DNA of 64,000 bases, from positions 175,639-239,638 of the forward strand of contig CAJINV010000017.1 in assembly GCA_905178155.1 (NCBI GenBank), in the 5' to 3' direction. A model generated the notes under the pieces. That model had not been told where the DNA came from. It saw nothing but the letters and a program-made list of their open reading frames with translations, and searched no databases. The position numbers and the translations under genes are program-made. Source of the DNA: Amoebophrya sp. A120 (taxonomy: Eukaryota; Protista; Dinoflagellata). Below are positions 1 through 62,569 of this stretch, piece after piece (the first letter of the stretch is position 1; each line of letters opens with the position of its first letter).

Positions 1-312
1 ATGAAAGAAATTCAAAAACAGCTTACCAACTTTCGTGCCTGGATGGAGCTCTATCGGGCGGACAAAAACTGTCCCGATAAACCGGACAGAGTCGGAAAGA
101 TCGATGAAAACGGAAACGGGCTGTACGCAGCGTTTCTACGGGGCGTCTTGCGAAAAGATTGGGAAGCGAGGCAGTGGATCCAAATGTTGGCGCGGACCAA
201 ACAAAGTGTGCAGAGACAATTGGCGGAGGTTGACAATTTCTTAACGTGCCATGGTCTTTCCGGAGAAAATTCGGCTTCGATGCGTGCTGGATCCGGTTCT
301 TCATCTACTTAG
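1..312 (+). CDS. Probable 3' end of a hypothetical protein gene (may be truncated by the window edge)
   Basis: Open frame from base 1 to TAG at 310-312 with protein-like composition, followed by AT-rich sequence. No recognisable domain. Confidence 0.4.
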   Translation: MKEIQKQLTNFRAWMELYRADKNCPDKPDRVGKIDENGNGLYAAFLRGVLRKDWEARQWIQMLARTKQSVQRQLAEVDNFLTCHGLSGENSASMRAGSGSSST

Positions 313-26279: not shown

Positions 26280-27939
26280 GCGGAGGAACGATCATCGTGA
26301 CAGGCTTGGTTGACAGAGGACAAGACTCGTCTACTCATCATCCTGGCTGCGGATACATCATCTTCATCACTCTTCTAGCTTCGCGATGTGGTACGATCTG
26401 CATCACTCAGTATCTACTTCAGGCGCGGGCTACGTACTTACTTCCAATTATGTCTCACCACATTGATTTAATCACGATGTCAGTACGAGTGCCAGTTCCT
26501 TTCAGTAAAAAGGCTTTTACACGCGCCAGTACTTGTCCTTGCCTTGATGCAAGTGAGTAGGCTAGTACGACGCTGCTAGATCTACTGGCCAAAAAGGTGA
26601 CTCAATAAGTTGCAATCTTATCGTGTTCTGTAGAGCTAGAGGCATCCCGAAGCTTTGCGGGCGTCGTGTTCTAGTGTTCACAAAATCGTCTCTCGTGTTG
26701 TAGTTTCGACCCGTCTAGACGAGGCAACCTCGCAAAGTCGGTTTGTTTGTTCCAGCAGTGGTCATCATTTGCCATATCTTTTCTGCGCCGACCGCGATTC
26801 GGTTTCTGTACTTATGTTAAATTCGTCACAGTGTCGCTGTCGGTCATCATCTTGCATATATTGCTGCAGCAACTACAACCAGTGGTCGCATGGTCGTCGC
26901 TGTGTCGCAGTTACATCAATTATTTGAAGCGTAGCTACGTACTGTATCTATAACTTTTTGTTTTTTTTATTTTGATGTGCAGAAGTCATCTGACACTGAC
27001 ACTGACACACAGTGTAAATCAAAATCTACCATTCGTGTTTATTAGCAGAACAAGTCGTTGGCTGGTATGCTTCAAGGAGGTACTTAATCCTAATCGGCAA
27101 GATAAGTCTTGTGCCCTCGTCCGACCAGAGGCTCCTCCGCGTCATATCGGTTTATTCTTCGTTGGTCGCCAGCACTTTGTTTCGGTTTTATGTTTGGCCA
27201 CGCCACAAGCACAACCTCTGTTCGTCCTTGTTTCGTGATATATCGTTGACCACAACGACCTATGGAGCCTGTAAGTACGTACACATCGTCCCTATCCTGC
27301 CTGTAGGCGTGATCGTGAACATGAGTAGCCTACTATGTAGTTCACATAATGGTAATGCCACCGTGACCGTCGTAACCGTAAGTAGTAACATGGATTGCAT
27401 CCAAAGAACGGCGAAAGCAAGACAAAGACTTGGAGCACTGCATGCTGAGGATGCTGCGCCAGGAGCACGACTCTGAAATGTACCTAAAATCATCGGAATT
27501 CAAAGAACAGGCTTAGCCTATTCCAATTCTTCCGGAGTCGGCTTCATCTTTTCCTACTGTTTCAATCCCCCGTGTAGTTTCTACAAAAATTTACGATGTT
27601 TAACGTACCCCGTTGATATCGTTTCAAAACGTAAACATAGTTTATCCATTTTCTACATTATCATTAAGGAGAGCGTGCTTGGGCTCTTACTTTCTCTGTA
27701 CTACTGGTGCACCCGCACTAAAACAACCCAAAGAAGCTTTTGATTTACCAAAATCAAACTCAGACTCAAACCTCATTCGACCTAAAAGATGCTTGCTGCG
27801 GGTGCGGTCAGGGTCCGAGAGGACAAACGGTGAGTACGACGCGGATCCCGACCCGTCGTCCCAGTCCAATTAACTTGAGGGAAACTAAATCTTTCCTGAA
27901 GAGTTCGGAAAATCTTCTCCGGGTTCAAGAACCCGGCTC

Positions 27940-30604
27940 TTGTATGGTTTTTCACGACCTCGTTTCACTTCTACAACGAAGATGATCAAACAGAAGCGAA
28001 ATAAAGCAAAAGAAAAAGACCGGAAGAAAGCCTCCGGTCGGGCTGCGAAAAATTCTGCTCAACAAGCAGGTAAAAATAAAACGAGCAAAGATGGAAGCGG
28101 AACCGCGCCAGATCATGTTCTTGATCCTAATGGACAACAATCCCACAGGAGAAAAGCGGTAGCATCGATCTTCAGCCGCAGCCCTTCCTCCAGTTCCTAT
28201 GCCTCGTCGTCCTGTAGCTGCTACACAAGCAGCGACACAGGTGGTGCAGATGAAACGGTTCTGGACGTGTACGACATGGAGCACCTCGAGGTTTACCGAT
28301 TACGAAAAGAGCGACCTCCTGCTGCAGCCGATCCTCCTCGTCGGCAGGGCAAGAAGCCAAAGAACAAACAGAACCAGTCCGGCTCTGCTACTGCTTGTTC
28401 ATCATCAACATCATCATCAACTTCCTCCGCGACAGCGACCTCTTGCGAAGAGGAGGACGAGAGCAGCTCTTCTTCTGACCCCGTCGCCAGTCCACCCAGT
28501 GTAGGCCTGCTTGTTGCGCCGGCCCCGGCATCATCCGATCTATTATTTCACGATCACGTTCTACTCGGAGAAGCAAATTATAGTCCAACGTCGGTCGTGG
28601 ACGCTGCAGAGCTGGAGCAGCAGAAAGTGATGATGAAAACTCGTGTGGGAGGAGGTGAAGCACTCGAAGGTGACGATTCACAACTCGTCGCTCGCACGGA
28701 CAGCAAAAGGAAGAAGAAAAAGAAGAAGAAGAACAGCACGCCGACCACCAGCACGACCGCAACGACCACTACAAACGCAACAACTACAACAACGGCGTCC
28801 TCCGACGAATCATCATCTTCTTCTTCTGATGAAAAAAGAAAGAAGAAGAAGAAGAAGAAGAACAAGAAGGCAGCGCAGCAGGTCGTTGCTCGTTCCAATG
28901 TCATGTACGACCTCAAGAGCGACAACCACTTGCAAAGCGTCGCACGGCAGGGCGGAACGGCTCGCGAGCTGAAAACTCTCCTCCAACAAGGACCACTTCT
29001 AGTGCTCACAGTTATACTGATTCTTGCTGCAGCTGTAGGTGCCTGGTTCTTCTTGCTGGGTCACCTTCCGGAGCCGGAACGAGGAAATGTGAGCGGCGCA
29101 CAGGTCGTGGAGCACGAAAGTCCCGTGGCTTCGGGGACGATGCAAACGAAAGAGCTCCAGCCACAGCAGGCATTTGTGCAAAAGCGGAGAAAAAAGACAA
29201 ACCTTCGGGGAGGCTTTGCTCCGCCAACGGTACAAGACAAAGTGCCTCCTGCGTCCTCGGACGGTGTGGTCGCGTCAACCCCCCCCTACCAGAAGGACTG
29301 CGACGAAGCCACCAGCACACCTTCTGGTGTCAACTGCACCCCGAAGGAAGAAAAGGACCAAGATGCGTTCGGATTTCACGGCGACCGTCCTGCCGCAAAA
29401 AAGCAACGCCAGCAGGGCCACAGGGCCAGGGGAGCAGGGACAGAAAGAAACGCCAAAACTAATCCCGCCTTGGACTTTCTCGAGACGCTGGATGACGTAC
29501 CCGCAGGAGCCTCGGGAGAAGGAGGAACAAGCGCTACTTCCTTTGCCTCGAAGGGGAAGGCAGGTGCGACACCTGCAGGTGGAGCTCTTTCCTTGCGTCT
29601 GCCGCACATGGCGCCGCCGCCTGCGAGCGGTGCATCGCTGCTACTTCTCGCCGGTGCCACGAACGGAACTCTACCGGGGGCGGCGGACGGTCTTATCGGG
29701 GGTCAAGAAGAAGAAGCCATGACGCGGGTCAGCAAGACGAACTACCCCGTAGCCGTGACATCGTGGCTGCAGGAAGTGCGGGAACATACGGGAACGCGAA
29801 CTGGCGGAGGAGTACCACAGGCTGTCGCTGCGACCACCTCTACCGTGACCGCGTCTCGTCAAACGACGCTACCGGCTTCGGCTCTTCAACAACAACAACA
29901 CGCGGTGGACAACGACGACAAATTTGTGCAAAGCAGTTACCTCGCGTGTCCGGAGTTTCTCAACGACTCAGAAGGCGGGGCGCTGCAAAGACCACCGACA
30001 ATGCAAGACCTGATGGAAGCGAAGATGAACAGTGATGATGAGTTTCGACCGAAAACGTGCCCGAAGTACCACATGCTTTTTCAGCACTTCCATATGGCCT
30101 TCTCAAATGTTACATTCTCAATTGTTGCATGAATTTGTAATGCAAGAACGGCAAAAGAAGTGAAAGGGGGAAGATTGCGCCTTTTGCGTTGCAGATTTGG
30201 CGCAGATTTAGATGCTGTCTAGCCCTTCGAACATTTGTCACGCGAAGCAGCTTAATCGTGGCGATCTTGCGCACCCCTCGGACCCCGCACCCCCCGGGCT
30301 TTAGCCGCGCAGTCTGTTAAGCCTGGAAAATCATGTAACAGCTGGGAGTGTAACGTTTGAGAGTCCCATACTCCAGGGGCTCCGTGTGTGCCCCGACTAC
30401 TATTTCTCAGAGGAAGCTATGAACGAACCGGTCTGCCAGCACACAGAAACAAGTTACACGGTTGCTTCTCGGGGGCCTTCAGGCTGGTGGCAAAGTTTCA
30501 GGTTGCCGAATGATATTTCAGAAGCGACCTATCAAAAATTTAAAGAGCAGGCCGGAGAAATGGAGCGCGCAAATCCTTTGTCGCAATTGCAACTCTACAA
30601 TTTC
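27940..30604 (+). CDS. Hypothetical Lys/Ser-rich single-TM protein, at least 2 exons; 3' end uncertain
   Basis: 730-aa ORF with poly-K, poly-S and poly-T tracts and TM LLVLTVILILAAAVGAWFFLL. Joins ORF 30386 in frame after removing 30093-30375 (QHFQGLRVCPDYY). Confidence 0.65.
30093..30370. mobile_element. TIR introner, family C
   Basis: ~40-bp imperfect TIR: tatggccttctcaaatgttacattctca and tgggagtgtaacgtttgagagtcccata. Direct repeat TTCCA/CTCCA. Frame restored. Interior is the reverse complement of 60455-60698. Confidence 0.9.
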
Positions 30605-30936
30605 TATCAACTGCAAATCTGTCTTGCTCTGCAAATCATATGCTGACGCTTCAAGAAATTAGTCAATTACATGCTGCTGCAGTGCCGGTTTCGTGTTTGC
30701 ATAACGCTCGCACCAGGAGATAGAGATTCAGACATGCACATGCTCTGGATCAAGGGCTCCTCGATTCCTCTCGCTACTCAAAGAAAGTCATGTATATGTC
30801 CTGCATGTTGTTGGGTTTCGGCACCGATTGCGATTTTCATTCTTTCTTGTGCAAATCAGCAAGGCAAGCAACATCATCTTCCCAAATTGAAATTCGCGTA
30901 CTACTTCTGCTAATCCAAATATATTTGCAGCTGATA
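30605..30936. mobile_element. TIR element, family A-like, no matching direct repeat
   Basis: Ends tatcaactgcaaat and atttgcagctgata. Flanks ATTTC/GGGTT do not match, and the downstream exon is uncertain. Confidence 0.55.
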
Positions 30937-31820
30937 GGGTTGAAGCGCGGAAAGACAACAAACGCAAACATATGCAAGCGTCAACAGGCGGGAACAGTTC
31001 AGAGCGGAGGATGAATGTGCACATGAAGTGTGTCAAGAAAGAGAGAAATTCTGAAATTTGATGTGGTATGGCTTTGCTCAACGTCAACTCCAAACAAAGG
31101 AGGTAAACGGATTTTGCTGCGATAATTCGCAATTGAAGTCTTACGGTGCGCGATGCTAGTGCTGCTGCTGTGTCAAATGCCTCACGCCAGGAGTGTGAAT
31201 GACCCTAAAAGCTCCTCTCGAAGCTGGTTGATGCCACTGAAAATTTTTGCTTCCCGCCGCCCCGCCCGTGTGGTTGACGAAAGCGGCATTTGTTGTTGCT
31301 GCTCATGATGTAGATTTAGGTTTTGCAGACTGCAACACTGTGGTGCTTCAACCGAACCTTGTGCTGCTGCTTCAGCCTAGTATTGTTGACGGTGCCGTGA
31401 GCTGATGGTGCACGAGACAACACACCTGTCCCCCCGTACCGGTGCCACCTGCGCACGAAAAAGGGGGAATATAGAAGTGGCCTCCAAGCGGCCCTGGTGT
31501 CTGACTGCTCGTAGATAGTGCAACTGTTTATTGCTGACGTATCCGGGTAACGGTAGGTAGTGGGAGGAAAAGTAGGATGGGCGAGAATTGCTTCATGATA
31601 CGTAAAGGCAAGTGAGATCCTCACCAGACTTGGGGACAGAGCTTTTCTCTACTGGCTACCAAAGGGAAAGCCGTGTTATGTGCCTCTTAGAAAAAGAACC
31701 TGCCTGGATGATTCTGTCTTCACGAACAGGAACACAAAGAAAAATGCTCCATTTTGAAAAGTTCCACCTCCGCGGCCTTCCATATGTCACCCCGTCAGAA
31801 GAAAGGAGTTCTGCCTGGCG

Positions 31821-34800
31821 ATGATCTTGGGCTTTGCTGACACTGCGTTTGGCTTGGCAGCCGAGATCCAGCGTGATCCTGAACAAAATCGTGATGTACT
31901 AGCGAGCAAGGTTGCAACCGTTAAAAACTTGCCTGATCGGAGCTGGGCCAACCTGTTGAGTTCAAGGTTCATGACTCAGGGCTGTCATGCGTATCTCCTC
32001 GACAAGAAAACGGCGTATAGCGAAGGTGACGAGGTGGCGTTTGCGAAGAAAAGAATTCCCGAGCTGCTCAAAATAGCAAGTGATACAACACGCTCACTGC
32101 AAGATGTTCGACAGCGAATTACTACAATCAAGATGTTCCAAAGAGAAAGCGACGGTGGAATGGAGATGGACACCATTCCCTTTCCCCATAATTACCGCAC
32201 AGAAAAATCTTGAGTTCTCATTTCACAGAATCATGAAGACGAATAACACTCTTGCATGAGCGATAGCCGATGCCGATCACTCGATGATACGTCTATCACG
32301 TGACTGTGACCGCTGCACTTAGATGAATTATTTCCTTGCGTACGGTCACACGCAACAAAACCGAATTGGAGCGTGTCGCTTTGACTCAAGATTTTGATTC
32401 AATAGCGGTATCGATGGCGGCGTCAACCTTTACCCCGCCACCGACGGCGTTATGCCGTGGCTTGCGTGGGCGATCTTCTGGAGCCCCAGGAACCAAGCAA
32501 ATCTGTTCAAGTTGTACCAGTGGGGGATCTCGCTTGGGCGAAAACACATTCCCGAGGGAGAGGACGACTCGGAAAAAAATTTCAGTGTGGGCAACTCAAA
32601 CTCCGGGGACCTTGTAGAGTGCCCGAACACGGTCACGATTCTGGGGCAGGACTGGTCCCAAGCCTTCGCCGAGCCGCAGATCGCCCAGAACGCGGAGGTG
32701 GCTGTCCAAATTTTCAACGCGCTGGCTGAGAATAACCTGAGACACAAGGAACTGGGGAAAAACGGCTGCAAGCGGCGGATGTCCAATACCAAAGTGCGCA
32801 ATTCCGTCTACTTTACTTCATGCGTTATGTTGCACAGGCGCCATGAGTTCCACAGCTAGAGCTCTTGCGGCCATTGAAGTTGCATTCTTCCTGACTGTAT
32901 CTATCATTATCTGTCACATGGGAATCTGCAGCACTGTTGATCCGGTGAAGCAGTAAGTAATATGTACTAGACGCAGCTGCTTGATGTCTGTGGATCATTT
33001 ATTTTTGTCACGCATAGACTACAAGAACAGTATGTGCGCTGCATCTGCGATGCTTCTCCGTCTGCTCTTCCCGTGCATCAACAAATGCGGCCGAGGGCGG
33101 CCTTGCGCACTTTCATAATACATGGAAAACCCGAGATGTGGGGGTTTGCGGTGCCCGTTGGAGGCCAAACCGCAGCGGACCGGGGACAAAATCCACCGTC
33201 CAGCGCCAACGGCAACAAGGTTGACCAAGAAGACTGGAAGTCGGAAGATTGGCGCGTGGAGAACACGGAGGGCGGCGTGTTTGTCATTGTTGGACTGCTG
33301 GAGCATGGTTTCTCCTACCAGGGAACCGTCCGTGTGCCCATGAAAGAAATCATTTTGCCCGAATCTAAGGACGGCACGATCGAGCTCCCGTCCAAGTCGG
33401 GTAGCAAGCAGGGGGTTCACGCGATTCGGCTGCCCCGGAAGGACAAGCCCGAGGCGAAAAAATTCTGGGACGCGTTCGACGAGCGGGTACGCACCACGGA
33501 TTTAGAGTACCACATCATGGAGAAGAATGGCTATCACGTGTACGTTTGGGCGGGACCGAGGGGAGAAAAGCATGTTGCGCGGCATTTGCGGCGCCTGGAG
33601 GCTTGGGAGCTGGAAGGACACGTCGATCTGGCCGGGAAATTTTTAGAATCCATTGACAACCATATCCTGAGTAAAAACGTACCCACACCAGAGTCAGGAT
33701 GGGGATTTTGCAACACAAACGTAGGAGCTTTGTGAGTCACGCATGACAAGTTGCACGATGCAGTGCAGTGCAGGTTAGCAAGTGCAGCCGCATCACAGAT
33801 TCGTCTGCTCCTCCTGTTCACAGCATTACAAATTCCAAAACACGATTGGAAATGGCTCTCATGGGGATGCGCATTACAACTCTTCCTGTCTTTGCAAATC
33901 TGCATTACAACTCTGGTGTGGGTACGTTTTTACTCAGGATAAACCACAAGAGCCTGGACCTCCTCTCTACCACCACGCAAGAAAACATCGTCGAAGTCCT
34001 ACTGTGGAACCTGATTCCCCTCTCTATACTCAAAACGAAAATATATGTGATTTTGATTTGATGAATGTCGTGGCCTCAAATCGCACTGCAGGAAGCAGGC
34101 ACAAATGCCACAGGTGGTGTCCGCCGCATTGCCATTGCGCACTCGGTTTCTGGTGTTGTGGAACTTTCATGACAGCCGTCTGGCATAGGCATGCGAACAC
34201 AGCTACACACAAACGTCCCGACTCATCTGCTTTAAAAATCACTTCCTTGTTCAGCCCCCTATTGCGTGAGAGATATGATTTGCGTACGTGTACGCACTTT
34301 CTACCCTCGTCCCCTGCAACGAAAAATTGTCCCCTCGCCAATAACAGGCGTTACCGTCCGCGATTCTTGTCCCATGCGTCCGTACTAACCAACACCGTGC
34401 GAACCGGGATATCGCGAGGGAGACCTTGGAGGCCTGGGCCACGTCTGCAGTTGTGGACGCGGCCTAAGGTCGACAGGGGTAGCTGCTTGCTGGGCAGGGT
34501 TATGCAGACTCCGGGGGTATAGCGGGCGTTCCCTAAAAATCCAAAACCTGCAGAAGTTGGGCAGCCAGTCCGGGCACTTGCTCGACGCTGGCCGTTTTTG
34601 TATGATAAGCGCGACAATTTATGCATGTGTGTTAGGCGCCTGCTTGCCTTCACCGACTAGTAGAGCAGCCCTCTCTGGTAGAGGGATCAACTGACTATGT
34701 CGGAGGCAGCAGGAGGACGTCGCTACGTCATTCACTCACATTCGTACGCAATAAATCCGGCATCACATTTAGTTTCGCTTTTGATGTAGGGCGGGATGAT

Positions 34801-37800
34801 TTTTCATTTTGATTAATCATGCTGGCACAGCAGGGGCTGTTGTACGTCTTCAAGGAGAAACACCAGCGGCTTGATGACTATGAAACCATTGGAAAAGAAG
34901 AAAAAAGGAGCGTGAGCCTCGTCCTCAGTGGCGTCTTTCTGACTATGGCCTACAATCAAGGCTCCCGTGGTTTCATCGCGGCGCAATATCAGCAGAATTG
35001 TTTCAAAGGGGGGAATATGAACTGCAAATATGTCTGGGTCTGGGAGAAGATTGCGAGGTTTGTCATGCTTGTCTGGCACGACTCTGGACTCTGTGTTGCG
35101 TGGCCGCAAAGAGCTCCTCTTGCCGTGCATGCAAAGACGCAGTTTCTCATGCGGAGTACGCAATTCAAAACTACGAAAAAACGTGCCATGCTTGGCGGCG
35201 CATTACAGTGTTCTCCGCTGTCCCTTCCTTGCATCACAAGTTCCCAGACCCAGACATATTTGCAATGCATAGGGAAGTTCAACCAGAGCAAACTGACGTC
35301 ACGAAAAGATCCCAAAACCGGGATGGAAATCTACGAGCTTGAGCAAGCGGAAGACAAGAAAGATTCCCAGCGCGGGGTCTCGTACTCGGTGTTCAAGGAG
35401 TGCTATATCATGGCCCAGGCATCCAAGGTTTATTTCATTGCCCCAACCGGAAACCCGAGGAAGAAGATCAAGACACTCTTCCACGCCACGCGTGACAACG
35501 TGCACAGTTCCTATCAGAGCGTGATAAAGAACATTGGCGCCTTGTCGAGCAACCCGGTCGAGCCGACAAGTGAAGACGTCGACGAAGTGTTCCGGGGAGT
35601 GCGTGAGACGCTCGACTGGCAGGTTCTGGCATGGCTAGGTCTGAGAGTGTCCAAGGCAAATAGCCTGCGGCTGCGGGAGCACCCTGTGGACTGGTCTGAG
35701 CCCATCATGCAGAAATACCAGCCGGGCCTAAAACAAACCTATGGCGACGATGAAGGCGACTTGAAGACGTTTCTAAAAAAGAAGCGGGAAGACGAGACGC
35801 AAGGCACCTTTGCATTGAACGTCGGCTGGTTTACGACGTACGATCTTCTGAACCGCCTTGATAAGATCAGCGATGCTATCCTATTCAAAAACGTCCGCGT
35901 CCGGAGTTGCTTCTTGTGCAGGAGAGTTGCATTTTCAGATTCAGAAACGCAAACGGTTGCCGCTCAATTCCTCTTGAAGAGAGGCCGTCATGCTCATCGT
36001 GACGACGTACCTGTAGTTCTTCGGAATTTCTTCATGCTGTATTTGCAGCATGATGGTAAGTACGCATTTGACTTTATGATGCGCATGCGACTGTGCTCGC
36101 AAGTAGCGCTTCCACTCCATCACAAAAACAAAGATCAAGATGGGAAAGTGCGTAACTCGCAAATAAGTAGAAAGAAACATCACGATGAGTACGTAATCAA
36201 ATCTTAACAGTGGCTGAAGAAGTTCCATCTTCTTGTTAACTTATGGGCGGGCACGTTTTTCCACAGGAGAAAGATCGTGAAGCGCAAGGCAACCTCCAAC
36301 GCAGGCGCGGTATGAGGGTGCACATCTTTATTCCCTTCTTGCCCTCGTTTGTAAATGCAGAATACAAAATATACACTGGGCCCGGCCTTGAGTTACGACA
36401 AATTTTGCAACGTCAAATAATAATTACTACAATGCGAATGCGCACGAAGAGGCAGCTGTGTCATGAGAAATGGCGTTGCAGCTGTTCACGCGCTTACAAA
36501 CAGGGGAGGAGGGGGAGTTGTGCACCCTCATACTCGGTCGAACTGCAACACAAGAAGAAAAACGATGACCAGGAACGGCGCACCGCTACGACTTGCAAAT
36601 ATGTCTGGGTCTGGAAGATTGCGCGGCTCGCCGTGCAGTCTCCATTCTTCCCCTATGACGACGTCTGGAAAAATGCAGCACGTAGCGTTTGAGATTCTGG
36701 AGGGTCCTCCACCTCCTGATCTATATTATTCGTAAGAACCCGGCTCTCCAGTTGACCAAAGCAAACGCGTTTTTTCAGTAGTCATGCAACAAGAGAGATT
36801 CATCTCTGACCCACGGGACGCTTTACGAGTTTGCAGTGTTTTAGAACCAGACATGTTTGCAGTGCATAAGCAAAAATGCCGTCCGACTGATCAAGCAGTG
36901 CCCCGGGGGGTTTTCGACCGACGTGCAGCGCGGGGGAGCCCCGTTGGAGGGGCGCGACGCGGAATTGGCAAGAAAAGCTCTCGGCTTGCTTGCAGTCCCC
37001 GTCGCCAACGAGCAGCAGCAAGAAGATAAGCCTGAGCCTGTGACTGTGTACTGCATTCGCTTTGACAACCCTGCGTTCCAGAAGGAGCAATTCTTGCTGC
37101 TGGGTCACGAAAGTGTGCCCTTTCTCCAGGCAAAGGCTCCTGAGAATCGCTTGGGCTTGGGAGACGTAGCACTCTTCTATCGAAATGAAGAACGTACTAA
37201 AGCCCCGCCCTTGCGAAGAACATTTCTATTTCAAGGGGTTTTTGTCATGTGTTGTGAGATTACCAACTTCGGGGTCTTTTATGGAAGCCAGGCCCTAGCG
37301 GAATCTGGGCCCTGGGTCGCCGAGAGGCGAAATCTGTTTGTGGAGTTGATCGACCCCCCTTAGATGGTGCCTTTCTGGGTATTGTATATGGACAGGCCCT
37401 GCGAAATAGAGCAAGAAGGAACAGCACCCGGGCAACAAGTCCCAGCGGCCCCTTCTGATGTAGAAGCGAAGCTTCCCTCTGTGGCCATCGGTGTTCGGGT
37501 GTGCCAGTTCCTTCTGGCCCGTTATTGCCCAAGCAACTGCAAAAAACAGAAACAACACGACCTCGCAAGCCTTGAACCGTCGAGGGCACGTGGCTCGATG
37601 GTGGTTGTACACTGTTCCTTCCAGCATTTCGCTGCTGCTCCCTCGCTAGAAATAGAACCCACTGTGGTCCCCGAGTGTCCGCGCGACCGTGTTGGCCACC
37701 GCCTCCGCAAGATTCCCGGCACACCATCCACAGCACCGACTCCTGTGGGGTTTGTATTCTGCGGCCAGGTGGGCATCGCCAACGATGATGATCAATATCA

Positions 37801-37918: not shown

Positions 37919-40900
37919 TGAAGCCATATTTATAGTAACTACTAGCGCAAGTAGAAAATCGATTCTTTTTGTTCTAAACGACTCGGGGGGTGGGGCAATT
38001 TCGCACATGATAGGAGCCACGTCAGTAACGCGAACAAAGCAGCTGACAAGAGTGTTAGTGCCGGCTGTTGTTGAAGAATCGCCAGTTTTTGTTGAATTTG
38101 CTTTAAATCGGACCACGAAGTGTCTAGTGGGAAATCGACAAAATGATAATTTGTCATGAATCTTCCACCTTAAAGTTAAAATGACATAGAAAACCAGCAT
38201 GCCCAGGAATTGGCTCGCTTGATGGCCTCAGCTTATTTGTTGTATAGGGCGCTCGCGTATTGCAATAAAGAAAAATAAACTGTAATTTATTTCGAGACGG
38301 CGCTTCTACTGATGTATGATCTACTCTGCTGTAGTTGCGGGCAAAGGCGATTGCTCCAGGCATGCACTCCAGAAATTCAATTTTTGTTGAGGCTAGGTAC
38401 CGAGGCTGACTGTCAGACAAGCGGGCTCAGCTGCCTGTATTTATATCTGTACAACCTACAACGAAAACTCACACTTTTAACTTTTCAATCAAGCTTTTCT
38501 TACGAAACTACTAATTCTAAAAACCTAAAAATTCTAACATAAGAACGAACCTCCTTTTGTCCATTTACGACCATCACCATTCACCAAACCAATATAATTC
38601 TTAAGCAGAAAACGCACAAGCAACTTTTTTGATGATCTGAAACAAGTAACAAGCCGCAACCCTGGGCGAAACACCAGCGTCTTTGTATACTTTTTTTTTG
38701 ATCTAACATACTTAACTACTCCCGTACATGTGGTATCCCGATAAATGAAATGATTTCACCCCAGTCAAAAATTTTGAGATAAAGGAAAAGCACCCAGCAG
38801 GAAGTTTAATAACTTTGATCAAGCTAAAAGTGGTCTTATATACATTTTTTTTCTGCATCATGCACTTAAAAGAACAAGCGTCTCCTGAAATAAGATTTGT
38901 TACAGTGTCTTTCTATGCACCCAAATATCAAAATCAAAAAGCAAAACAATGCAGATCCAAAACAAAAGCAAATGCTATGTGCAAGTCTAGATGTTATCTG
39001 GATTTGGATAGATAGTATACATGCAAAAATTACAATCTTTATGGGAATGTTAAAGCACAAAAGGCACTTCAATAGTACCCATTCCATCATGTAGAGATCA
39101 AGTATTTTCGTTTTTCGTTTTCATATCTACTAGACAACACGTTGGTTGGATGCTGTGAGCGACTCGGACTCGTCTGTTCGATGAAGCAGTGCGTGTTCTG
39201 TTCGAAGTGTTGGCACAGATAAACTGAAAGTCGGAGTTGTGGTGCGTCATTCATGGCTGGAATTGACCAGGGGCATCAATCCCAAACCTCGAGCATTTTT
39301 TTCAATTTCATCGGTTTCTCGTAACAAAGGCACCAGGTCGCCCATCATCTTTGATGTGCCCTGCGCCAGAGGAGTCGGTTCGGAGGTCTCTTGCTGCCGT
39401 TGCGTCAAAAAGTTGTCGGTAAACGAGGGAGCTTCACTTTTCGTTTTCGTTTTGGTCTCATTTCGGTCCTCTCGTTCCTCGTGCGGACAGGAGGCTTAGC
39501 GTACGTGCTTTCGGTTTCATCCGTACAACTCGTGCATGTAGCAGTTAACGCTCGTCGAGAACAAAAACGTCTTCGTCCATACTGTTGAATAACGCCTCGT
39601 CTAGATGAACAAGCATGCCGCCACAGGCGCAGGCACAGATTTGACGCGCTCTCGCCGTCTTGGAACGAGGGCAGTACGTGGTCGGTCGTAGTTGTATTTT
39701 TCCTAGCTGCTCGCCTCGTCCTGTATGAAGAGCATCTTTTGAATGGAAAAAAACATCGTGCTTCTTGTGCTTCAATATTACTTAATTTGAGGATAAAAGT
39801 TGTTGCTTTGCTTGCGTGGTCGTAAAGATAAAGCATTTTCACTATTCATCACAGGAGCGGCTGTGGTTGTGAGTTCGTCTCACCACCGATAGTTTTCTTC
39901 CAACTCTTTTCCCCTTTTTTCGCTACATTAAAGACTTGCATTTCCCCATGACAAGAAAGACGATTCGGCCCCCCGTTTCGTCGCAAAATTAAGAATACCA
40001 CGGAAGAATTTACTTATTTGATTCGATTACTATGTATGTTCAAAAAAACGCGAAGAGTTGCATATGTGTTTGTGAACAAGAACTGTGTTGATTGTCGAGA
40101 TTTAGTTCCTAATGCTGCACTAGATGTAGTGATTGCCTAACGCCAAGGGACCTCGTCCAACGTCGTTACTTTTCACGACCACGGGTACTAAGGATATCCT
40201 CCTTATATTTTTGCAACGTATAATTTGAAGAGCTGTATTGTTTTTAATTTTCTGTATTCCCCCCCGAAAATCAAAATTTTCAAAAAAAAAAGCAACCCCA
40301 TACATACACATGTAAACGACGCACGACAAAGGCTCCCCGTCGAAGTCGTTGTCGAATTGAAAAGTTTTGTCCCTATTTTTTACGACGAAATTCATCACAT
40401 GAGATAAAGATGAAATTGAAGCAGAAGAAAATCATCAAAACCCCCCGGGAGCAACGAGCGCAAGCCACGAGGAGGCGAACAGCTGCGAAGGCTCGACGCG
40501 TGGAAAAAACGCAAGAAGAAGAAAAAGACGAAGCAGAGGAAAAAGTCGCCACCTGTGATGGGCGAGCGAAAACGGACATAAAGGAGCATGGCTCCACCGC
40601 AAGCCTGAATCTGTACAAGTACTACGCAAGTGCGAGAACAGAAACGCTGAAGCACGTCCACAATACACAATTACCACCAGCTCCTCCTCGGGGGATGGCC
40701 GCCCTGATCAAGAGCACGCGGCACCAGAAGCTCTACTTTGCGACGCAGCTGGCCTTCCTTTTCCTGCCACTGGCCGTGCTCGGGAGCGCCCCCGCCCTCT
40801 TGCTCTTCGACCAGACCGAGCCCGCGCCTGCACCGGTAAGCTTTTAAGAGGGCATCGGACATCACTGTAGTGTGGCCCAACGAGAGTGAGAGACAATTGA

Positions 40901-42110
40901 GGTTGCTCATTTTGGTCATCATGCTGCCCGCTAAGGTTTATCAAAGTAAACAAAGAACATGAGCAGGAAGCATGACCAAACAATCCATGCCGTAGGCAGT
41001 AACTGTAGCTAGGCTTCTTCCTTCTTTCTTATCAACAAATTATGCTCTGTGCTGCTAGCGCACCCCGAAGATCATCGCAAGCAGTTGACTTCAAATGAAA
41101 ATTTTCTGTGTGTGACGTAGCTAATCCAGCCAGAAAGAATAAATTAAGTAGCTCTACTTCTTATCTTTGCGATGCATAACAGGCGCCAGCAGCTATCAGA
41201 TGCAAAAAAACCAATACGCAGGCGTGCCGTTCTAGTTGCAATACTTCAATCAATTTTCTGTGCGCGTTTGTCACTTTAGACAAAAAATAGGACGACGAAA
41301 GTGCTGCAGCGACACAGTTCAACATGGAGCCCAGCATCGTGCCAGTTTTTGCTTCTTCCCGCAAAGAGGATGCTTTCGCACGTGCTGCCGAGACGAGCTC
41401 GCGTTTCGTTTGCATGGTCAAAGAATATACTCGTGCGTATCTCCACATGTGCGATTGGTTTTTTTCGTCTCATATCACATTGCAACTCCGATGGTGGCGG
41501 GCCGGAAGGATGTACTAAGGCTGCGGCTGGTGCAAAGATTAAGATTATCCCAGAAACAGACCAGAACTACATCGACTTCTGAGAAGATAAATACCATATC
41601 GAACAACTACAAAGTACTTCTGACAGTACTAAAGCAAAGATACAGAAATCGGCACCGGTGGCAATAAAAAAGAAATTTATGCAATACAACAAGACTTTGA
41701 GTTAGACTAGAACTAGACTAGAACCAGATCTAGACCTCGTCGGAAAAGCTGCAATACTAGCACATCAAGGAGTTCGATATTACTTGGTCTTCGTGAAGAG
41801 AAAGAGTATGGTATTAATTCTACTCTAGCGATGTTGAACTACTTTTCCTTGTGACACAACGCAGCGAGGACAAGGATGAAGCTGTGGAGCAGCTGCCATA
41901 TCACAAAAAAGCATGGGGGGAGGGTGATTGAATTTCTTGAAAAAACTCGTTCTCGCAGCTCTACAGAGAACGAAGCAGTAAGTATGATTCTGTTTTTTTC
42001 TGTGGCGTCGTGCAACAGCGCAATGTCCGTTCTCTTTTCGAAAAGACGAGAGCGAAGGTCTATCAAGTACACGGTTGATGATGAGCAGGCCAGTGCTGAA
42101 ATTGAAGATA

Positions 42111-43219
42111 TCCCTTGATGATTTTTGCCTCCTTCTCGTAGAGCTTGTTTTGGCGAGGTATTCACCGATGGGTTATTTGAAACGTATTTCCGACAGACTG
42201 CAATTTTTTTTCGGCGAAAAAAAAAAATCGCTAGGCTGAAGAGCCCTGATTGCCTTGGCGCTGGCAATCGGCGTTGTGGCGTTTAAGAGCCGTCGTCGCC
42301 TGAGCTTTAAAGCCACTAGCTGTTGACGGACATTGGCCCCCATCGCACTGCTCAATGTTTTTCCGGGTTGGCCTGTTGCGCCCGGCCGGGTCGGGCGGGT
42401 CAGGACCTGCTTGGCTTGCCGCGCAATATCGCGCGCAGAGCGCAGCGTTTCCAGGCGTCTTCGTGGCCCCCGTCCTGTGACAGTGCGGCCGCATTGAATT
42501 CGGCCTGGCGCACCAGTCACACCGGCGCCAGACGGTCCCGGCCAAGAAGACGCCGCGGCGCGGTGAAGCGCTCTGCGAAAACTTTTTTGCTATAAAACGG
42601 CGGCACGGCAGATGTGGCCGCCTCCTTGCGCGGCCCCCCCCCTGGCTTCGCGATGGCTTTGGTGGTTGGCCGGCTTCGGGCCTCTCCCAAGCAAAGGCTG
42701 GGGTCTCGCATTGGCAGCGCTGCTTGAGGAGCAACACGCCACCCGCGGGCCATAAAAGAAGAGCAGGCTTCGGCGGCTGGGCATGTTTGTGGGCCACCGC
42801 CGTGCCCCGCCGCCTGGGCCCGGTTGCGGCGTTCCTTTTCCGGGCTCTCCGCGCGGAAGGGGGGGCAGACAGTTGCCTAAGAAAAATGCCCCGCGGGCGG
42901 CGGGGCGGGCGTGCAGGGAGACGTGCCGGCGGCGGGCCGCGTTGCCTCTTCGCCGGGCGCGTGTGCATGTTTCTGAACTTCCCCCGCACCGGCCGGGCTT
43001 CTTGCAAAAGGGCCCCCGTTTGTAATGCGCAAACCGGCCGAACAAAGCCGGCGCGCAGCGGATGGCCCAGCGCTTCCTGTACCATGCCGCTGCCCCGACG
43101 CTCCGCTGGAGCATCCTGGCAAGAAGCCTCGAACGACACGGAGCAGGGGCACGCGCAGCCGGGCAGCGGCCACACAGGTCCCTTGATGATTTTTGCCTCC
43201 TTCTCGTAGAGCTTGTTTT
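42111..43219. repeat. Perfect 41-bp direct repeat bracketing a ~1.03-kb GC-rich segment
   Basis: tcccttgatgatttttgcctccttctcgtagagcttgtttt at 42111-42151 and 43179-43219. Confidence 0.9.
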
Positions 43220-43385
43220 CGGAGTTCTTTTACAAGACCACACTGTCACCGCCGGGCGAAAAAAATGAAAATCTGACGTGGAAATAAATGATGAAGATGC
43301 ATGCGATAGACAGACTCGCACTTCTATTAAAGAGCGACCACAAAAACTAGAAGCTGCTTGCGGCGGGCGCCCCCACATCACTTCA

Positions 43386-47133: not shown

Positions 47134-47201
47134 GCCTTCCCCGCCCGCCTGCCTTCCCCGCCCGCCTGCCTTCCCCGACCGCCTGCCTTCCCCGCCCGCC
47201 T
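47134..47201. repeat. 17-bp minisatellite, 4 copies
   Basis: gccttccccg(c/a)ccgcct in tandem. Confidence 0.85.
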
Positions 47202-56312: not shown

Positions 56313-59300
56313 ATGATCGTCCGCACCATCATGAAGGCTGCTCAAGCTTCCCGTCGCGACCACGGGCGGCGCCCGGCTCCTCTCCTCGTTGGACCGAATA
56401 AGATGCTGGTTCTCTTATTTGACTTTGCAATTCTGTGGCTTCCTTTCGTCGCCCTGCTTCTCCCGACGCCCGCGACTGCGAAGTCGCTGGCTGACTGCAT
56501 CACCGACCTGAATGCCGGTGTGGGTTGTGAGCTCGACCCGGGCGTCCACAAGATATCCTCGCGGACGCAGCTGTCCGGCATCTCCGCGTCCAATATATTT
56601 CTGGCGGGTAGTACCGCGACCAACGCGCAGCCGAGCGTGATCGACGGGACGGAGGACATTTCGGCACTGCTGCAGTGGGAAGACTGTTCCACGCTGCCCA
56701 CCTACGCGGACACGTGCGCTAAGGCGCTGGCCAACGAGACCGCGGGCGCCAAAATCTACTCCGCACTGCTGCCGAACGACAAGCCGGTTTACCAGCTGTG
56801 GATCGACTCCACCGACGGCCTGAGGGAGAGCCACCTGGGCCGCGAGATGCTGATTCCCGCCCGGTGGCCCGACCCGACGGCGGACATGGGAGCGGCGCTG
56901 AATGCCCAGGCGGACGCCCCAATCTGTATCACCCGCTCAGGCGTTACAGTCTCAAATGTTGCGACGAAGTCTGGCACTGGATAAGGATTTTGTCTTGCAT
57001 GAAGACATCAAGACATGAACAATTGTAGGGCCTGCCACTATTCCTAATCCTATTCGCAAGACAAATTATTAAGCCAGAAGGTTCTACTTCCCATGTTTGG
57101 AGTTCAGAATTTGTCGTGCGTACTCCGGTGGTCAGAGTTATTGTTCTTATAGTGCACTGTTTACATCACAAATAATCTCCTCCGCAGCTGCTTCCATGGT
57201 TGTAACTCGTGAATTGTAACACTTGAAGGCGGGCCATAATCCGGGGCTCCATCTTCGACACCGCGCACACTTGGAGCCGCATTATTTACGGCGAACACGG
57301 CAAGGAGTTTGCGCACAGCGGGAGCTGGCCGACCTGGGTGCGCGGCACGGACGGCGACGACCCGCCAAACACAGGCTGGGGTTGGATCCAGGACGCGGGC
57401 GGTCTGACCCGGTCCTACCAGGTCGAAATATGTGAGTGCACAACGGGTCCCCTCCCGCCCCGCATTTGTCATCCGATGGAACCCGAAACCCAGCATGTGC
57501 TACCTTATCCTTATGGCACTGTTTGCATGACAGATTCTGGAAGTCCACAACCAAATACAAACTGTCACTACACTAAAACGAGGTGCACGAAGATGAATTT
57601 TCCATGCACACGCTCCACGTGTGCCGGTGGTGTTGCTTGCATTAAGGCTGTTCATGCAGCTCTAGTACAAATAATGAGGGGGACAAGGGGGAGTTGTGCA
57701 CTCTCATACGGAACCGAGGAAGGTCAGATCGAAACGTTGACCGTGTTACCCTCTGCAAAGGTGGTATCGTGCTCGTACTGACACTGATTGCAATATTGCA
57801 TGACAACAAATCAGCACAAGCAAAACGTGGCTTACCGTTAAAATGAATCACCCTCGTTTTTCTGTGTGAAGGAAATTGAAATTGATGAAAGCGGTATGGA
57901 ATAAACATGTATAAGTGCGATGTGTTTTGCAATGCATACGTGTCTGGCCAGGGTTATCTGGCCGACGCCGGGTTCAATGCGACGGGCGCGGTGATCGTCA
58001 TGGGCTGGGGCAAGCAGATGTCCGAAATGGGCTACGTGCACAACCACACGGGCAACTTTTTGTATTTTAACCGCATCCGCTGCCCCCACCACGGGGGCGG
58101 CACCAACCCGCCCTACCAGAAATCCCCCCCCTACGGGTCCTGTGCGGGCAGCCCCTTTGTCAAGTTGAAGAACGGGGAGGAGCAGGGCATGGCGGCCTAC
58201 TGGCTGGGCAACAAACTGGACTTTGTGAACAAGTACAAGGAGTGGCATTTTCACTCCTTCAACGGATCCAATATCACGGGGACCGGCCCGGGTTACGACG
58301 CCGACGAGGATTTCTTCGGGTCGGGCGTGCCGGACCCTGCGCAGGCTCTGGGCGCCTATTCGGGGCGGCTGTTTGTGCGGATGGAAAACCACCCGTCCAC
58401 GTACACGTGGCACAGCCGCGCCACCGAGATCGGTCTCGATTTTGACTGCAGCGGAAACAAGATGCAGCGCTTCACGCTGCGCAACATCGTCTTCTTCGGC
58501 AATGTGCTCAAGGGCTTCAAGTGCCACTACTGGACCGTGCACGACAACGAGTTCCTGTATCCTTCGTTCGCGAAACGCACCTTCCGGCACCAGTCCGGCA
58601 CCATCGACGCAGGCCTGCCCAACATCGATTTCGCCGACTCCAATAACTTTTACAGTTCGGACTACGGTAAGTGGGAACACGTACAAATTCAGCGAGGGGA
58701 AAGCGATGGAATGGCAGGGGGACGAAGTGGAGTGGAAGCACAACGAGTTCGCCTTCAACGGTTTCAACGCCCTGGACGGCGCGCACACCGTGCGCGTGAA
58801 GGGAGCGAGTTCCGACTACAACACCATACCGCCCCTGAAATTTTGGTACAACACGTTCCGGCACAACGGGCACGTGTCGGCCGTGTTCGCCACGGAGAAG
58901 GCCAGTTTCGTGCAGCGCAACCGGATCCAGCACCAGAACGTGGGCGAGCTGCAGCACGATGGCGAGGCCGTGGGCGCCGGCTCGGTAGGGACAGAGGACA
59001 GTCGGTTCATGTACAACTGGGTCGATTACGGCCACCACTCGCTTTCCCTTCGGTTCGATTGTTCCCAAACCGCGACCTTCTCGGACGTTTCCTATGAATT
59101 GCAAAAGTATCGTATTCGTATAAATGCATTACAAATTTTTTAGCATGAGAAATAGAATTACTTAAAAATTTGTATATGCGGATTTACCTTAAGAAAAAAA
59201 TTTGTAAATGCAAGACTTGCATTTATACGAGTGCGATACTTTTGCACAGGATATTTCCCGGAACGGCACGATGATGTACAATCTGGGGTACGGACTCTCG

Positions 59301-62300
59301 CCCAAACTGATCGTGAAGGGGGAGGACCACCAGATCCACTACAACACGATTCTCGACGGAGAGATGCACATTTGCCGTGACTTCGGGAGCAGTCTGTGCG
59401 GGATGAACCGGGACAGCTTCTTCAACAGCAACATGGCCTCGCTGTACAAGCCCCGCGGCGAATATCAAACAAAAAAAGTTCGTCACGATCACTCATGCGC
59501 ATTTTTGCAATACAAAATTGGCTGTCATGCGTAAAAATGCATGACAGCCAAGCTAGGGGATTTCCCTAGTGTTTCTGCAATACAAGGAAAACTTGTGATG
59601 CTAAAAAAATTTGTAATGCAAAACCTGCAAGTTACTGACTGTGACAAACTTTTTTCTTTCCATAGCGAAGGCTGCACCTCCAACTACGACGGTGTGTCGA
59701 TCGTCAACGGGCTTCCCACGGGCTTCGACGCGGCCTCGAACAAGCTGACCACCTCCGGCACCTCGTGCTCGTTTCTCCGCGACTGCGAGCGCTACGACTT
59801 CCGGCCGCACTCGGCGGCCAGCCCGCCCTACGGCGCCTTCCTGTACCACGACGTGGCGACCGAGGGCGCATTTGACGCCTACAACGTCCCCGGGAAGCGG
59901 CTCTTGCGGAAGCCGCAGCCCTTCACGCGGTCTTCCAACGTTACCGCCTCGGCGATCTCGGACTTGTCCTTGATTTTCATCGAGGAGCGGGACTGCGAGC
60001 TGGCGAACTACATCACGCTGTATTACAACACGGCGGAGTGGCCCATGGACAACGTGTCCACCATCCAGATTCCCGCGGGCATGAACGTGCTCCACGTGGA
60101 CAGCTACCTGCTCGGCTACGCCGCGTACGAGTGGGCGGTCACGAGTGGCTGCAGCGGGGACACGGTGAACGCCACGGGGCTGGGCTTCACGGCGGGCGTG
60201 GGGCCCCTGATCGGGCTCCCGCCGACCAGCACCACCACCACGACGAGCACCAGCACCACCACAACGACCACGACCCTGTACGTCGGGCCTGTCACCCTTC
60301 CGCCCACAACTACGACCACCCCCATCCCGGTCACCAGCCTGTACAACACGAACGCCACGGCGGCGGCCGAGGCCGCTGGCAACAACGCCGCCGACCCGGT
60401 GGTGCCGGCGACCGCCACTTATGTGGCCGCGGGATCCAACCTGACAATGGGGAGTATGCTGGCCTTCTCAACCGTTACATTCTCAACGGTTACATGATTT
60501 GTCATGCAAATTCACCACCAAGATCGCCCTGCTTAAGCGGTTCCGCATGACAAATATCCGAAGGGCCAAACAGCATCTAAATCTGTGCCAAATCTGTAAA
60601 TCTAAATGCAAAAGGGCAATTTTCCACCTTTCACTTTCGCTGTTCTTGCATTACAAATTCATGCAACAGCTGAGAATGTAACGCTTGAGAACCCCATAGG
60701 GAGTGCGAGCTCCAACTTCGTGAACACGTGTGGCATATGCACTACAAAACTTTCATACACCAGTGCCTGGTATTTCTAGTGGTAATTCTAAGTTTTCCAA
60801 GAAGACGCATGTTGAAAAAGGTGCGGAGCAAATTTTAATTTATATCTGTCATGCGAGATAATTAGAATTACATCCAGTGCGATACACTACGACTTTTGCG
60901 CAGGTGGATATGACACGAATGACAAGCTGCTGGACGCGACGCTCAGTACCTGTGCGGCGTTTGTCACCGCCATCAAGTCGTCGGTCTGTGAGGCGACGAA
61001 CAGTATGCTGCAAGCTGCCGCGACGAAAGACAGTACTGTAACGTACACCCGCATCGAGTGCACGCAGTTCCAGTTCACAAAGATCGCGATACGGATCGAC
61101 AGCGTGAGTTCTCGGCGCGCTCTGACGACGCAAGCCGCGAATATTACGATCGCTACCAATTCCACCGCGACGGTGACCGTGGAAACCGAGTACCAAATCC
61201 TGTTCTCGAACCCCGCCAGCGCGCTGGACGGCGGCGCAAGTGCCGCGGCCCTCGCGAGCCAGCTTTCGAGCGCGAGTGAGGATCCCGCGGCCAGCAGCCA
61301 ATTTCAGTCCTCTTTCACGTCGAATTTCGGCACCGCGGTGGCCAGCGACACGAGTCTGAGCACCATGACGGTCGCGTCCGTGGCGCGCAGCGCCCCGGTC
61401 GTGGAGTCGACCACGGTCTACGTGCCGCAGTCCGTGGTCACAGCGGCGCTCCCCCCGACTGCAACGGCGGAAACAAGTGGTGGCGGGGATAGCGACGACG
61501 GGGGCGCGGGGGTCATTTTAGCGGTTATCTTCAGCATCGTCGGGGTGGCGGGAATCGTCGCGGTCCTGCACTTCAAATACAACACCTTCGGGTTGCAGAA
61601 GGCGGCAAGTAGTAACTCGACCGAAGAAGCAGGCAAGATGAACCAGCGGGCCGAGGGCGAGGAAAATTTCGTCGACGTGGAGACTGGCACCCCGCCGGAC
61701 GTGGAGCAAAGCAGACCCAGTCAGAGTTCGCTGAAAAAGCTCGGCACGGTATGCATTGCAAAACAAGTAATGTTGTACCAGTTGTATAAAGTGCATGTTG
61801 ACAAATTTTCTCAAGAAGAAAATTTGAATTTGTAATGCTGATTCAGGTCAGAAATTAGATTTGTCATGCCTGAATGCAATTTGTATATACGAGTGCGATA
61901 CAACTTTTGCAATTCATACACGGTGGGCAACATCAACTCCGACATGCCGGAGATGGCGACCGCCACCGGGGTCAAAACCACCGGCCGGTGGCGCCGGTGG
62001 TACGCCAGCATGCAGTTCGGCTCGAAGGTGATTGAGGACTCGGCAAAGCGGGCGGAGGAGCTGGAGCTGGAAGATGTGCAGCTCAAGTTGGGTGACGGCG
62101 AGAGCGGTTTTTTCCAAAACAGCGCCCCGGTCGTTGTGGTGCAGGGGAACCAAAGTCAAGCGTCCGCGGTGGTGCCGGACGAAAACGACGACATGCTGAG
62201 CGCCGCGTCAGACCACGGTGCAGCGGTGGCGGGGAACACTGCAGCAGCTCCCGTAGTTGCGAGCACCTCGAGCGGCGTTGATCCGTTGGCGGGGACAACC

Positions 62301-62363: not shown

Positions 62364-62569
62364 GGAGTGGAAACAGGATGGAACTTGAATAAAATATGAA
62401 TATGAAAGAAACTGATACTTGATCATTAATATCTTCTCGTCGTGCTCACGAGCGGTACGGATGCCTTAATCATGCAAGCGCAGATACAGCCTACCGTTTC
62501 GACTAACAAAATGTAATTAGAAGCGAAAACCGTTCATACCCAACAATTTTCACGAGCACCAACAAAAAC

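What the first reader, a model, noticed from the sequence alone, without database searches (positions are those of the whole stretch)
33658..33946. Junctions that cannot be GT/GC-AG in any register: unusual splicing or IES-like DNA excision
Seen: with repeats AACCA (33658), CAACA (22569) or TTTCC (59088), sliding the junction through the repeat never gives a GT/GC donor with an AG acceptor, yet removal must be base-exact to match the paralog. Inference: the boundary is set by the TIR stem and repeat rather than normal U1/U2 signals. An alternative is DNA-level excision, analogous to ciliate IESs, which have TA-bounded inverted ends or pointer repeats with one copy retained.
Basis: partly seen in the sequence, partly recalled or inferred. 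Interest (0 to 1): 0.85.

Follow-up and report, generated by a model that had tools for sequence, protein, structure and literature searches.

The report
Amoebophrya transposon intron without GT-AG
This is one of the already described transposon-derived introns of the marine parasite Amoebophrya that lack the usual GT-AG ends; new here is that the gene models in this region all fit one cutting rule (one base before a TAT/TAC, usually four bases after an ATA), which likely means a relaxed spliceosome removes them from RNA rather than the cell cutting them out of DNA.

Summary
33663-33941 is a 279-nt TAT...ATA element with a 32-bp terminal stem between two AACCA copies. None of the 6 registers gives GT/GC-AG, nor at 22569 or 59088. 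The window is Amoebophrya sp. A120: three NCBI models map on it, and CAD7969943.1 already removes exactly these 284 nt. The element fits the A120 introner of Farhat 2021, so the thing itself is known. DNA excision is not supported: DNA contigs run into the element at flank depth without a fork, while contig lengths of an RNA-like run fit exact removal. I did not see the junction read itself. One addition: among 29 non-canonical introns in the three models, only one register fits all. The intron starts 1 nt before TA(T/C), and in 23 of 29 ends 4 nt after ATA; 1+4 equals the 5-nt duplication. U+2 and A+3 are present in 29 of 29, A-7 in 27 of 29. The direct repeat has decayed in 16 of 29, and the stem is not clearly above background in 11 of 29. 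Most likely a relaxed U2-type spliceosome branching at A-7; lariat sequencing would test this.

The parts
33658..33662 (+). left copy of 5-nt target-site duplication AACCA; positions 1-4 predicted exonic, position 5 predicted first intron base
33663..33941 (.). 279-nt MITE-like introner element, TAT...ATA; ends shared with many other loci
   Evidence: loose ends exactly before 33663 (58 contigs) and behind 33941 (43 contigs) in X1
33663..33694 (+). left terminal inverted repeat arm (TAT + 7 nt + A-run, as described for A120)
33910..33941 (+). right terminal inverted repeat arm; its ATA gives intron positions -7..-5
33942..33946 (+). right copy of AACCA; positions 1-4 predicted intronic, position 5 predicted exonic
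33662..33945 (+). predicted true intron (284 nt, ends AT..CC); register inferred from other introns, not readable at this perfect repeat
33122..33661 (+). upstream exon of host model P0001 (CAD7969943.1, no Pfam family)
33946..33998 (+). 53-nt downstream exon of P0001
22569..22857 (+). sister element with CAACA duplication; exact removal aligns gap-free to paralog; no annotated model retrieved
59088..59258 (+). sister element with TTTCC duplication; removed exactly (166 nt) in model P0002 (CAD7969946.1)
30092..30374 (+). intron of P0001; 81% identical over 184 nt to 60454-60702 in opposite orientation
60454..60702 (+). intron of P0002; opposite-orientation relative of 30092-30374
40836..41182 (+). 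the only GT-AG intron among 30 in the three models; also has TA at +2,+3 and ATA at -7..-5

Best explanation
The element is a non-coding TAT...ATA transposon copy with a 5-nt duplication in an Amoebophrya A120 exon that is removed without a scar, likely at the RNA level by cuts one base before TAT and four bases after ATA, and likely by a relaxed U2-type spliceosome branching at the A seven bases from the end. Shown: anatomy, multicopy ends, exact removal in the published model, and a single register that fits all 29 non-canonical introns. Indirect: exact removal in RNA (contig lengths). Inferred: because 1+4 equals the duplication length and the element reads TAT...ATA either way round, any insertion of this family into an exon in either orientation becomes a clean intron whatever the target letters. 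Inferred and untested: N-U-A-(U/C) acts as a GUA-like donor with free +1, A-7 is the branch, the 3' cut is measured from it with no AG needed, and the hairpin helps bring the ends together. My odds: RNA-level exact removal 0.95; fixed 1+4 register 0.8; spliceosomal lariat chemistry about 0.6.
For: Identity: P0001, P0002 and P0005 are named Amoebophrya sp. A120 and map on the window (1701 of 1703, 961 of 961, 1405 of 1410 aa before junction codons are resolved); P0001 is reproduced whole with all 11 introns in the N-TA register. Register: 28 of 28 first-pass junctions admit T,A at +2,+3 (null mean 3.8, maximum 13 in 20,000 draws); offset 1 fits 28 of 28, offset 0 fits 21, offset 2 fits 19; the 29th fits offset 1 only. 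A-7 27 of 29, ATA at -7..-5 23 of 29; all 5 introns with C at +4 keep A-7, a mismatch in a stem. RNA: X3 has depth 0 and 0.68 in an intergenic and an intronic bin where X1 has 46 and 40.6; the spliced model predicts that X3 records 12/13 and 13/14 overlap by exactly 30 nt each. Spliceosome: 83 of 89 proteins and U2, U4, U5, U6 reported for A120. All 9 predominant A120 boundary types and all 9 A25 types in Table S4 have T at +2. Giardia's spliceosomal donor is VTATGTT, with a branch point at fixed distance from the 3' end (passages). The one GT-AG intron here also has ATA at -7..-5.
Against: No junction-spanning read was seen: one search hid 211 joints, and raw RNA runs X10 and X11 laid only 2 and 3 reads. 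The register rests on gene models built from transcript alignments, three genes, all on the + strand; offset 0 is excluded by only 8 of 29 and offset 2 by 10 of 29. I chose the register by TA, so 29 of 29 is partly by construction. First and last intron bases show no pairing preference (14 combinations in 29), unlike the first/last-base contact of known spliceosomes (recalled). U1 was not found in A120. No AG, and no pyrimidine tract is possible in the last 4 nt. Giardia's branch A sits at -8, not -7 (read from the consensus). TAT/ATA are also the transposon ends, so their conservation may partly reflect descent. 6 of 29 lack ATA and 2 lack A-7. Table S4 placements depend on the aligner.
Confidence: 0.6

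Rival explanations
1. Same RNA-level 1+4 cut, but by a spliceosome-independent endonuclease and ligase (or a second, unconventional complex) that reads the closed end of the TAT/ATA stem and cuts 1 nt and 4 nt outside it, as suspected for euglenid nonconventional introns, which leave as circles.
For: +2/-5 and +3/-6 pair in 26 of 29 and +4/-7 in 22 of 29; strong cognate stems in 18 of 29; both orientations are removed; no G+1, no AG, no first/last-base preference; U1 not found; euglenid precedent.
Against: 11 of 29 have no stem clearly above non-cognate pairs, and for 3 of 6 long introns a better partner lies well inside the annotated end by more than 4 kcal/mol. C+4 with A-7 occurs in 5 of 5 cases; +5/-8 pair in only 15 of 29. 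One model joins an N-TAT start to a CAG end (46488-47817). The one GT-AG intron shares the ATA at -7.
Confidence: 0.3
2. Programmed DNA excision like ciliate IESs: the element is cut out of a somatic or stage-specific genome, with one repeat copy kept.
For: TAY ends recall Paramecium IES ends (recalled, no call). Life stages of the DNA runs are unknown to me, and contigs drop rare variants.
Against: X1 contigs run unforked 26 nt into the element from both sides (30271-33688, 33916-35042) at depths 40.6 and 45.3, equal to unique flanks. The element-free form shows in X3, which lacks intergenic DNA. 16 of 29 have decayed repeats, so no pointer. A symmetric element is cut asymmetrically in transcript direction; the mirror register fits only 10 of 28. 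Farhat 2021 validated such introns as RNA-seq junctions against the genome.
Confidence: 0.03
3. The transcript uses nearby canonical sites, most simply GT at 33679 and AG at 33950, adding 4 residues.
For: 11 open in-frame GT/GC-AG options exist near the junction; the right arm ends in a T-run plus CAG at 33937.
Against: The transcript-based model has the exact junction. +12 nt would break the 30-nt contig overlaps unless another junction compensated. 0 of 28 junctions in the three models can be read as GT/GC-AG.
Confidence: 0.04
4. A recent insertion that simply breaks the gene, or an assembly artefact.
For: Other genes in the window carry frame breaks; 284 is not a multiple of 3.
Against: X1 contigs match both junctions with 0 differences; the gene is covered in X3 on both sides (depth about 51 and 71), and contig lengths fit the spliced form.
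Confidence: 0.02

Closest known systems
Amoebophrya A120 introner elements / non-canonical introns (Farhat et al. 2021, PMC7789003; read: abstract, sections 10, 11, 12, 16, 25, passages, supplement part 3 and legend passages; figures not seen)
   Same: Same organism name on the mapped proteins; IR = TAT + 7 nt + A-run; 3-5 nt direct repeat; about 240 nt; multicopy; non-GT-AG; this very intron is in model GSA120T00022039001.
   Different: [quoted passage not shown] Here one register fits all 29 non-canonical introns, with U+2, A+3 and A-7 nearly fixed.
Euglenid nonconventional introns (review PMC11282704, section 6 read)
   Same: Non-canonical ends, terminal stem, TSD-like repeats, MITE origin.
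   Different: The stem core is CAG/CTG at +4..6/-8..-6 there and TAT/ATA at +2..4/-7..-5 here; circles are shown there, product unknown here; unrelated lineage.
Fritillaria borealis non-canonical introns (as summarised in PMC11282704; primary paper not seen)
   Same: MITE-derived, TIR plus TSD, non-GT-AG, scarless.
   Different: Preferred ends AG-AC/AG-AT and spliceosomal removal reported; here the terminal dinucleotides are free apart from +2 U.
Giardia/Trichomonas/Spironucleus spliceosomal introns (PMC6679479, passages)
   Same: Giardia donor VTATGTT with loose +1; branch point fused at fixed distance to the 3' end; end pairing in long introns.
   Different: They keep a CTRAC branch box and a terminal AG, with branch A at -8; few introns, not transposon-derived.
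Ciliate IESs (recalled, no call)
   Same: TAY-type inverted ends, transposon origin, exact removal from coding sequence.
   Different: DNA-level, one TA or pointer kept, needs germline and soma; here both TA ends go, and no element-free DNA was seen.

Membership tests
Amoebophrya A120 introner element | Inverted repeat of 8-20 nt or more joining the intron ends, starting TAT + 7 nt + at least 3 A | tested here: met
Amoebophrya A120 introner element | 3-5 nt direct repeat over the exon/intron boundaries | tested here: met
   AACCA twice
Amoebophrya A120 introner element | Repeated in the genome | tested here: met
   58 and 43 X1 contigs leave the sequence exactly at 33663 and 33941; bin depth 146,776 against about 45 (not a copy number)
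Amoebophrya A120 introner element | Non-canonical intron removed in transcripts | tested here: met
   indirect: model CAD7969943.1 and X3 contig-length fit; junction read not seen
Amoebophrya A120 introner element | No transposase gene inside | tested here: met
   279 nt only; no Pfam scan of the element itself was run
Canonical U2 intron | GT/GC donor and AG acceptor | tested here: not met
   0 of 6 registers
Canonical U2 intron | Lariat with 2'-5' branch, spliceosome dependence | not testable with these tools
   needs lariat sequencing or inhibition
U12 AT-AC intron | AT..AC ends, extended U11 donor box, U11/U12 snRNAs | tested here: not met
   33662-33945 reads AT..CC; AT..AC at 22573 follows from the target letters; minor snRNAs reported absent
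Ciliate-type IES | Element-free junction in somatic DNA | tested here: not met
   X1 contigs unforked at both ends; one run, rare variants dropped, 211 joints not shown
Ciliate-type IES | Kept TA or pointer repeat | tested here: not met
   both TA ends removed; repeat decayed in 16 of 29
Euglenid nonconventional intron | CAG/CTG pairing at +4..6/-8..-6 | tested here: not met
   TAT/ATA at +2..4/-7..-5
Euglenid nonconventional intron | Excised as full-length circle | not testable with these tools
   no raw reads of this strain laid

The most novel reading that the evidence does not exclude
Amoebophrya A120 runs a U1-less spliceosome that has dropped both G+1 and the terminal AG. It reads N-U-A-Y at the 5' end and an adenosine 7 nt from the 3' end, and because 1+4 equals the 5-nt duplication of its TAT...ATA transposons, every exonic insertion in either orientation becomes a perfect intron. 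The seemingly signature-free boundaries of tens of thousands of introns would collapse to one rule, probably shared with A25 (TT-A starts) and with the canonical introns (GT-A).
Probability: 0.4. Interest if true: 0.78.

Novelty: already known. Interest (0 to 1): 0.4.

Why it matters
The element and its odd boundaries are published and annotated, so the finding as written is not new. How these introns are recognised is still open in the papers I read. A fixed register turns that into direct tests (branch at A-7, U+2 requirement, mirror pattern on - strand genes). It would explain why this transposon family could invade exons harmlessly, and it would allow correct annotation of A120 splice sites. 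If the spliceosome does it, it would be a natural case of splicing without the G+1 and AG that are thought nearly universal.

Tried and rejected
No whole genome is held for the window, so the rule could not be tested genome-wide or on - strand genes. No RNA holder was listed on record. Direct display of the 33658 junction in RNA contigs remains open. Pfam: no family for the host gene; of 16 ORFs scanned only 2 had hits, all below cut-off. Rfam: 0 matches in the window, so no snRNA to inspect. The search for a full model of the 57889 gene found none among 701-2000 aa proteins; no model covering 22569 was retrieved. My idea that first and last intron bases pair as in the spliceosome (A-C, G-G, C-A) was rejected: 14 combinations in 29. 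A first tally used wrong coordinates for one intron and was redone; 13406 is off by one. P0003, P0007 and P0008 do not map to the window and were left out of the counts. Earlier scan findings: none returned. Literature searches for a published fixed register or branch point found none, but figures of Farhat 2021 (Fig. 3 logos, S19-S25), Roy 2023 Curr Biol and Henriet 2019 were not seen and may bear on novelty. PMC12130899, PMC9860276, PMC11453091 and PMC12005148 were seen as passages only.

Full report
Observation. The sequence shows AACCA at 33658-33662 and 33942-33946 around a 279-nt element that begins TAT and ends ATA. Its first and last 20 nt pair 20 of 20, and it folds with a 32-bp terminal stem, z = -8.5, 0 of 100 shuffles as stable. 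A scan for 5-nt repeat + TAT...ATA + repeat gave 14 hits within 1500 nt, 8 with 14 or more of 20 terminal pairs. TAT ranked third of 64 trinucleotides, after TCC and GAG, which I attribute to the proline-rich repeat near 62.6-63.0 kb. All 18 registers at 33658, 22569 and 59088 lack GT/GC..AG on both strands; one register at 22569 reads AT..AC.

Identity. The upstream exon found P0001, named Amoebophrya sp. A120 (CAD7969943.1). P0002 and P0005 (CAD7969946.1, CAD7969945.1) also map on the window. P0001 removes exactly 284 nt at 33658 and P0002 exactly 166 nt at 59088. Farhat et al. 2021 (PMC7789003) report 65% non-canonical introns in A120, inverted repeats starting TAT + 7 nt + A-run, 3-5 nt direct repeats and 29,850 repeated introns; U1 was not found, and U2, U4, U5, U6 and 83 of 89 spliceosomal proteins were. 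Their models were built from transcript alignments. The element is therefore an already described and annotated introner.

Mobile origin. In run X1, 58 contigs leave the sequence just before 33663 and 43 just after 33941, so many loci share these exact ends. The paralog P0005, the A25 protein P0006 and the unnamed 87%-identical P0004 align across the site with no gap. P0004 starts in sequence that is intronic in P0001, so it is probably a genomic ORF of a relative with an empty site (inference).

RNA or DNA. X1 may be the window's own source and is not independent. Its contigs match with 0 differences and run 26 nt into the element from both sides at depths 40.6 and 45.3, like unique flanks, so there is no abundant element-free DNA in that run; rare variants are dropped and 211 joints were not shown. 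X3 is a guessed RNA run and behaves like one: depth 0 at 26608-27241 and 0.68 at 31046-31679, against about 40-70 in exon bins of P0001. Laying the spliced model on the record coordinates, record 12 ends at 33998, an exon end, and record 13 runs 33969-37177. That gives overlaps of exactly 30 nt with records 12 and 14, as expected for 31-letter words (the word length is from the tool text and recall). This fits exact removal summed over six junctions including the target. It is indirect, and I did not see the junction read. Raw RNA runs X10 and X11 laid 2 and 3 reads. An in-frame canonical option exists (GT 33679, AG 33950, +12 nt), so the paralog argument alone was not enough; the model and the contig lengths argue against it.

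Where the cut lies. At a perfect repeat the register cannot be read, but older introns with decayed repeats fix it. The three models hold 30 introns. Of 29 mapped junctions, 28 resolved at once: 0 of 28 allow GT/GC-AG, and 28 of 28 allow T,A at +2,+3 (null mean 3.8, maximum 13 in 20,000). The offset of that T from the intron start is 1 in all 28; offset 0 fits 21 and offset 2 fits 19. The remaining junction is two introns around a 10-nt exon: one GT-AG, and one that fits offset 1 only. Over the 29 non-canonical introns: +1 is free (A13, C6, G4, T6), +2 T 29, +3 A 29, +4 T 24 or C 5, +5 C/G 28; -8 C/G 27, -7 A 27, -6 T 26, -5 A 26; -4..-1 are free. So the intron takes 1 nt of the left duplication and 4 nt of the right, which sum to the 5-nt duplication and explain scarless removal. 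Limits: three genes, one strand, model-derived residues, and a register chosen by TA.

What is recognised. The repeat is dispensable: 16 of 29 keep 3 or fewer of 5 letters. The stem is strong in 18 of 29 and near background in several; for 3 of 6 long introns a clearly better partner lies inside the annotated end. All 5 introns with C+4 keep A-7, and +5/-8 are complementary in only 15 of 29, which points to letters more than pairing. 30092-30374 and 60454-60702 are 81% identical over 184 nt in opposite orientation and both are introns of + strand models, so only the symmetric ends can carry the signal. A symmetric element cut 1/4 in transcript direction, with the mirror 4/1 register allowed in only 10 of 28, argues for an RNA event.

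Mechanism. I favour a relaxed U2-type spliceosome. N-U-A resembles the GUA donor, and Giardia's donor is VTATGTT with a branch point at fixed distance from the 3' end. The one GT-AG intron here also has ATA at -7..-5. All 18 predominant boundary types in Table S4 have T at +2 (aligner-dependent). Against: U1 not found, no AG, no first/last-base preference (14 combinations in 29), Giardia's branch is at -8, and TAT/ATA are also transposon ends kept by descent. The main rival is a stem-end endonuclease/ligase as suspected in euglenids. The mobilising transposase is unknown; an A120 family with integrase-like ORFs and TIRs has been noted (passages).

Novelty and verdict. The element type and this intron are already known. 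I found no statement of a fixed register or branch point in the searches; Farhat's text calls the boundaries variable or unknown. Its figures, Roy 2023 and Henriet 2019 were not seen. Interest 0.4: ordinary as a discovery, but the 1+4 rule makes the open question of how these introns are spliced directly testable.

Noticed in passing
window 58660-58690: The 56.4-62.4 kb gene changes frame relative to its paralog at about 58670; model P0002 starts at 58502 in the other frame. Lesion or assembly error not resolved.
   Followed up: no
window 23610-23612 and about 21370-21382: The paralog gene at 20.7-26.3 kb has an in-frame TGA and a frame change within homologous sequence.
   Followed up: no
window 41898-44786: A 2889-nt annotated intron holds a GC-rich array of direct and inverted repeats (about 43.5-44.1 kb), a 64-nt triple repeat (43386, 44231, 44746) and a 332-aa minus-strand ORF (42231-43229). 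The annotated 3' end lies in the third repeat copy, though the same motif is in all three.
   Followed up: partly
window 46488-47817: Model P0005 joins an N-TAT start to a CAG end with no ATA at -7, although a stronger stem partner lies at 46774; if real, the two intron types share one machine.
   Followed up: partly
window 33999-34818: 820-nt CTAC-start intron with a weak stem; X3 depth 8.75 inside and a contig break at its 5' end suggest partial retention.
   Followed up: partly
P0004 C-terminus against P0001 residue about 1362: The unnamed relative diverges into YQTER after IMAQAS, which could be the start of its own TAT element at a site empty in A120 (inference, DNA not seen).
   Followed up: no
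window 2130-2340, 6076-6337, 11222-11509, 13405-13713, 57428-57712: Further elements of the same anatomy with no model retrieved; removal opens the reading frame in the four tested, including a RING-like gene (Pfam below cut-off) and a small gene that looks ubiquitin-like by eye (untested).
   Followed up: partly
window 45672-46002: Intron whose terminal letters nearly match those of the 33663 element, without longer similarity in the all-against-all comparison.
   Followed up: partly
window 62553-64000: Proline-rich coding-like repeat (21/24-nt units) followed by 46-nt and 51-nt tandem repeats.
   Followed up: no
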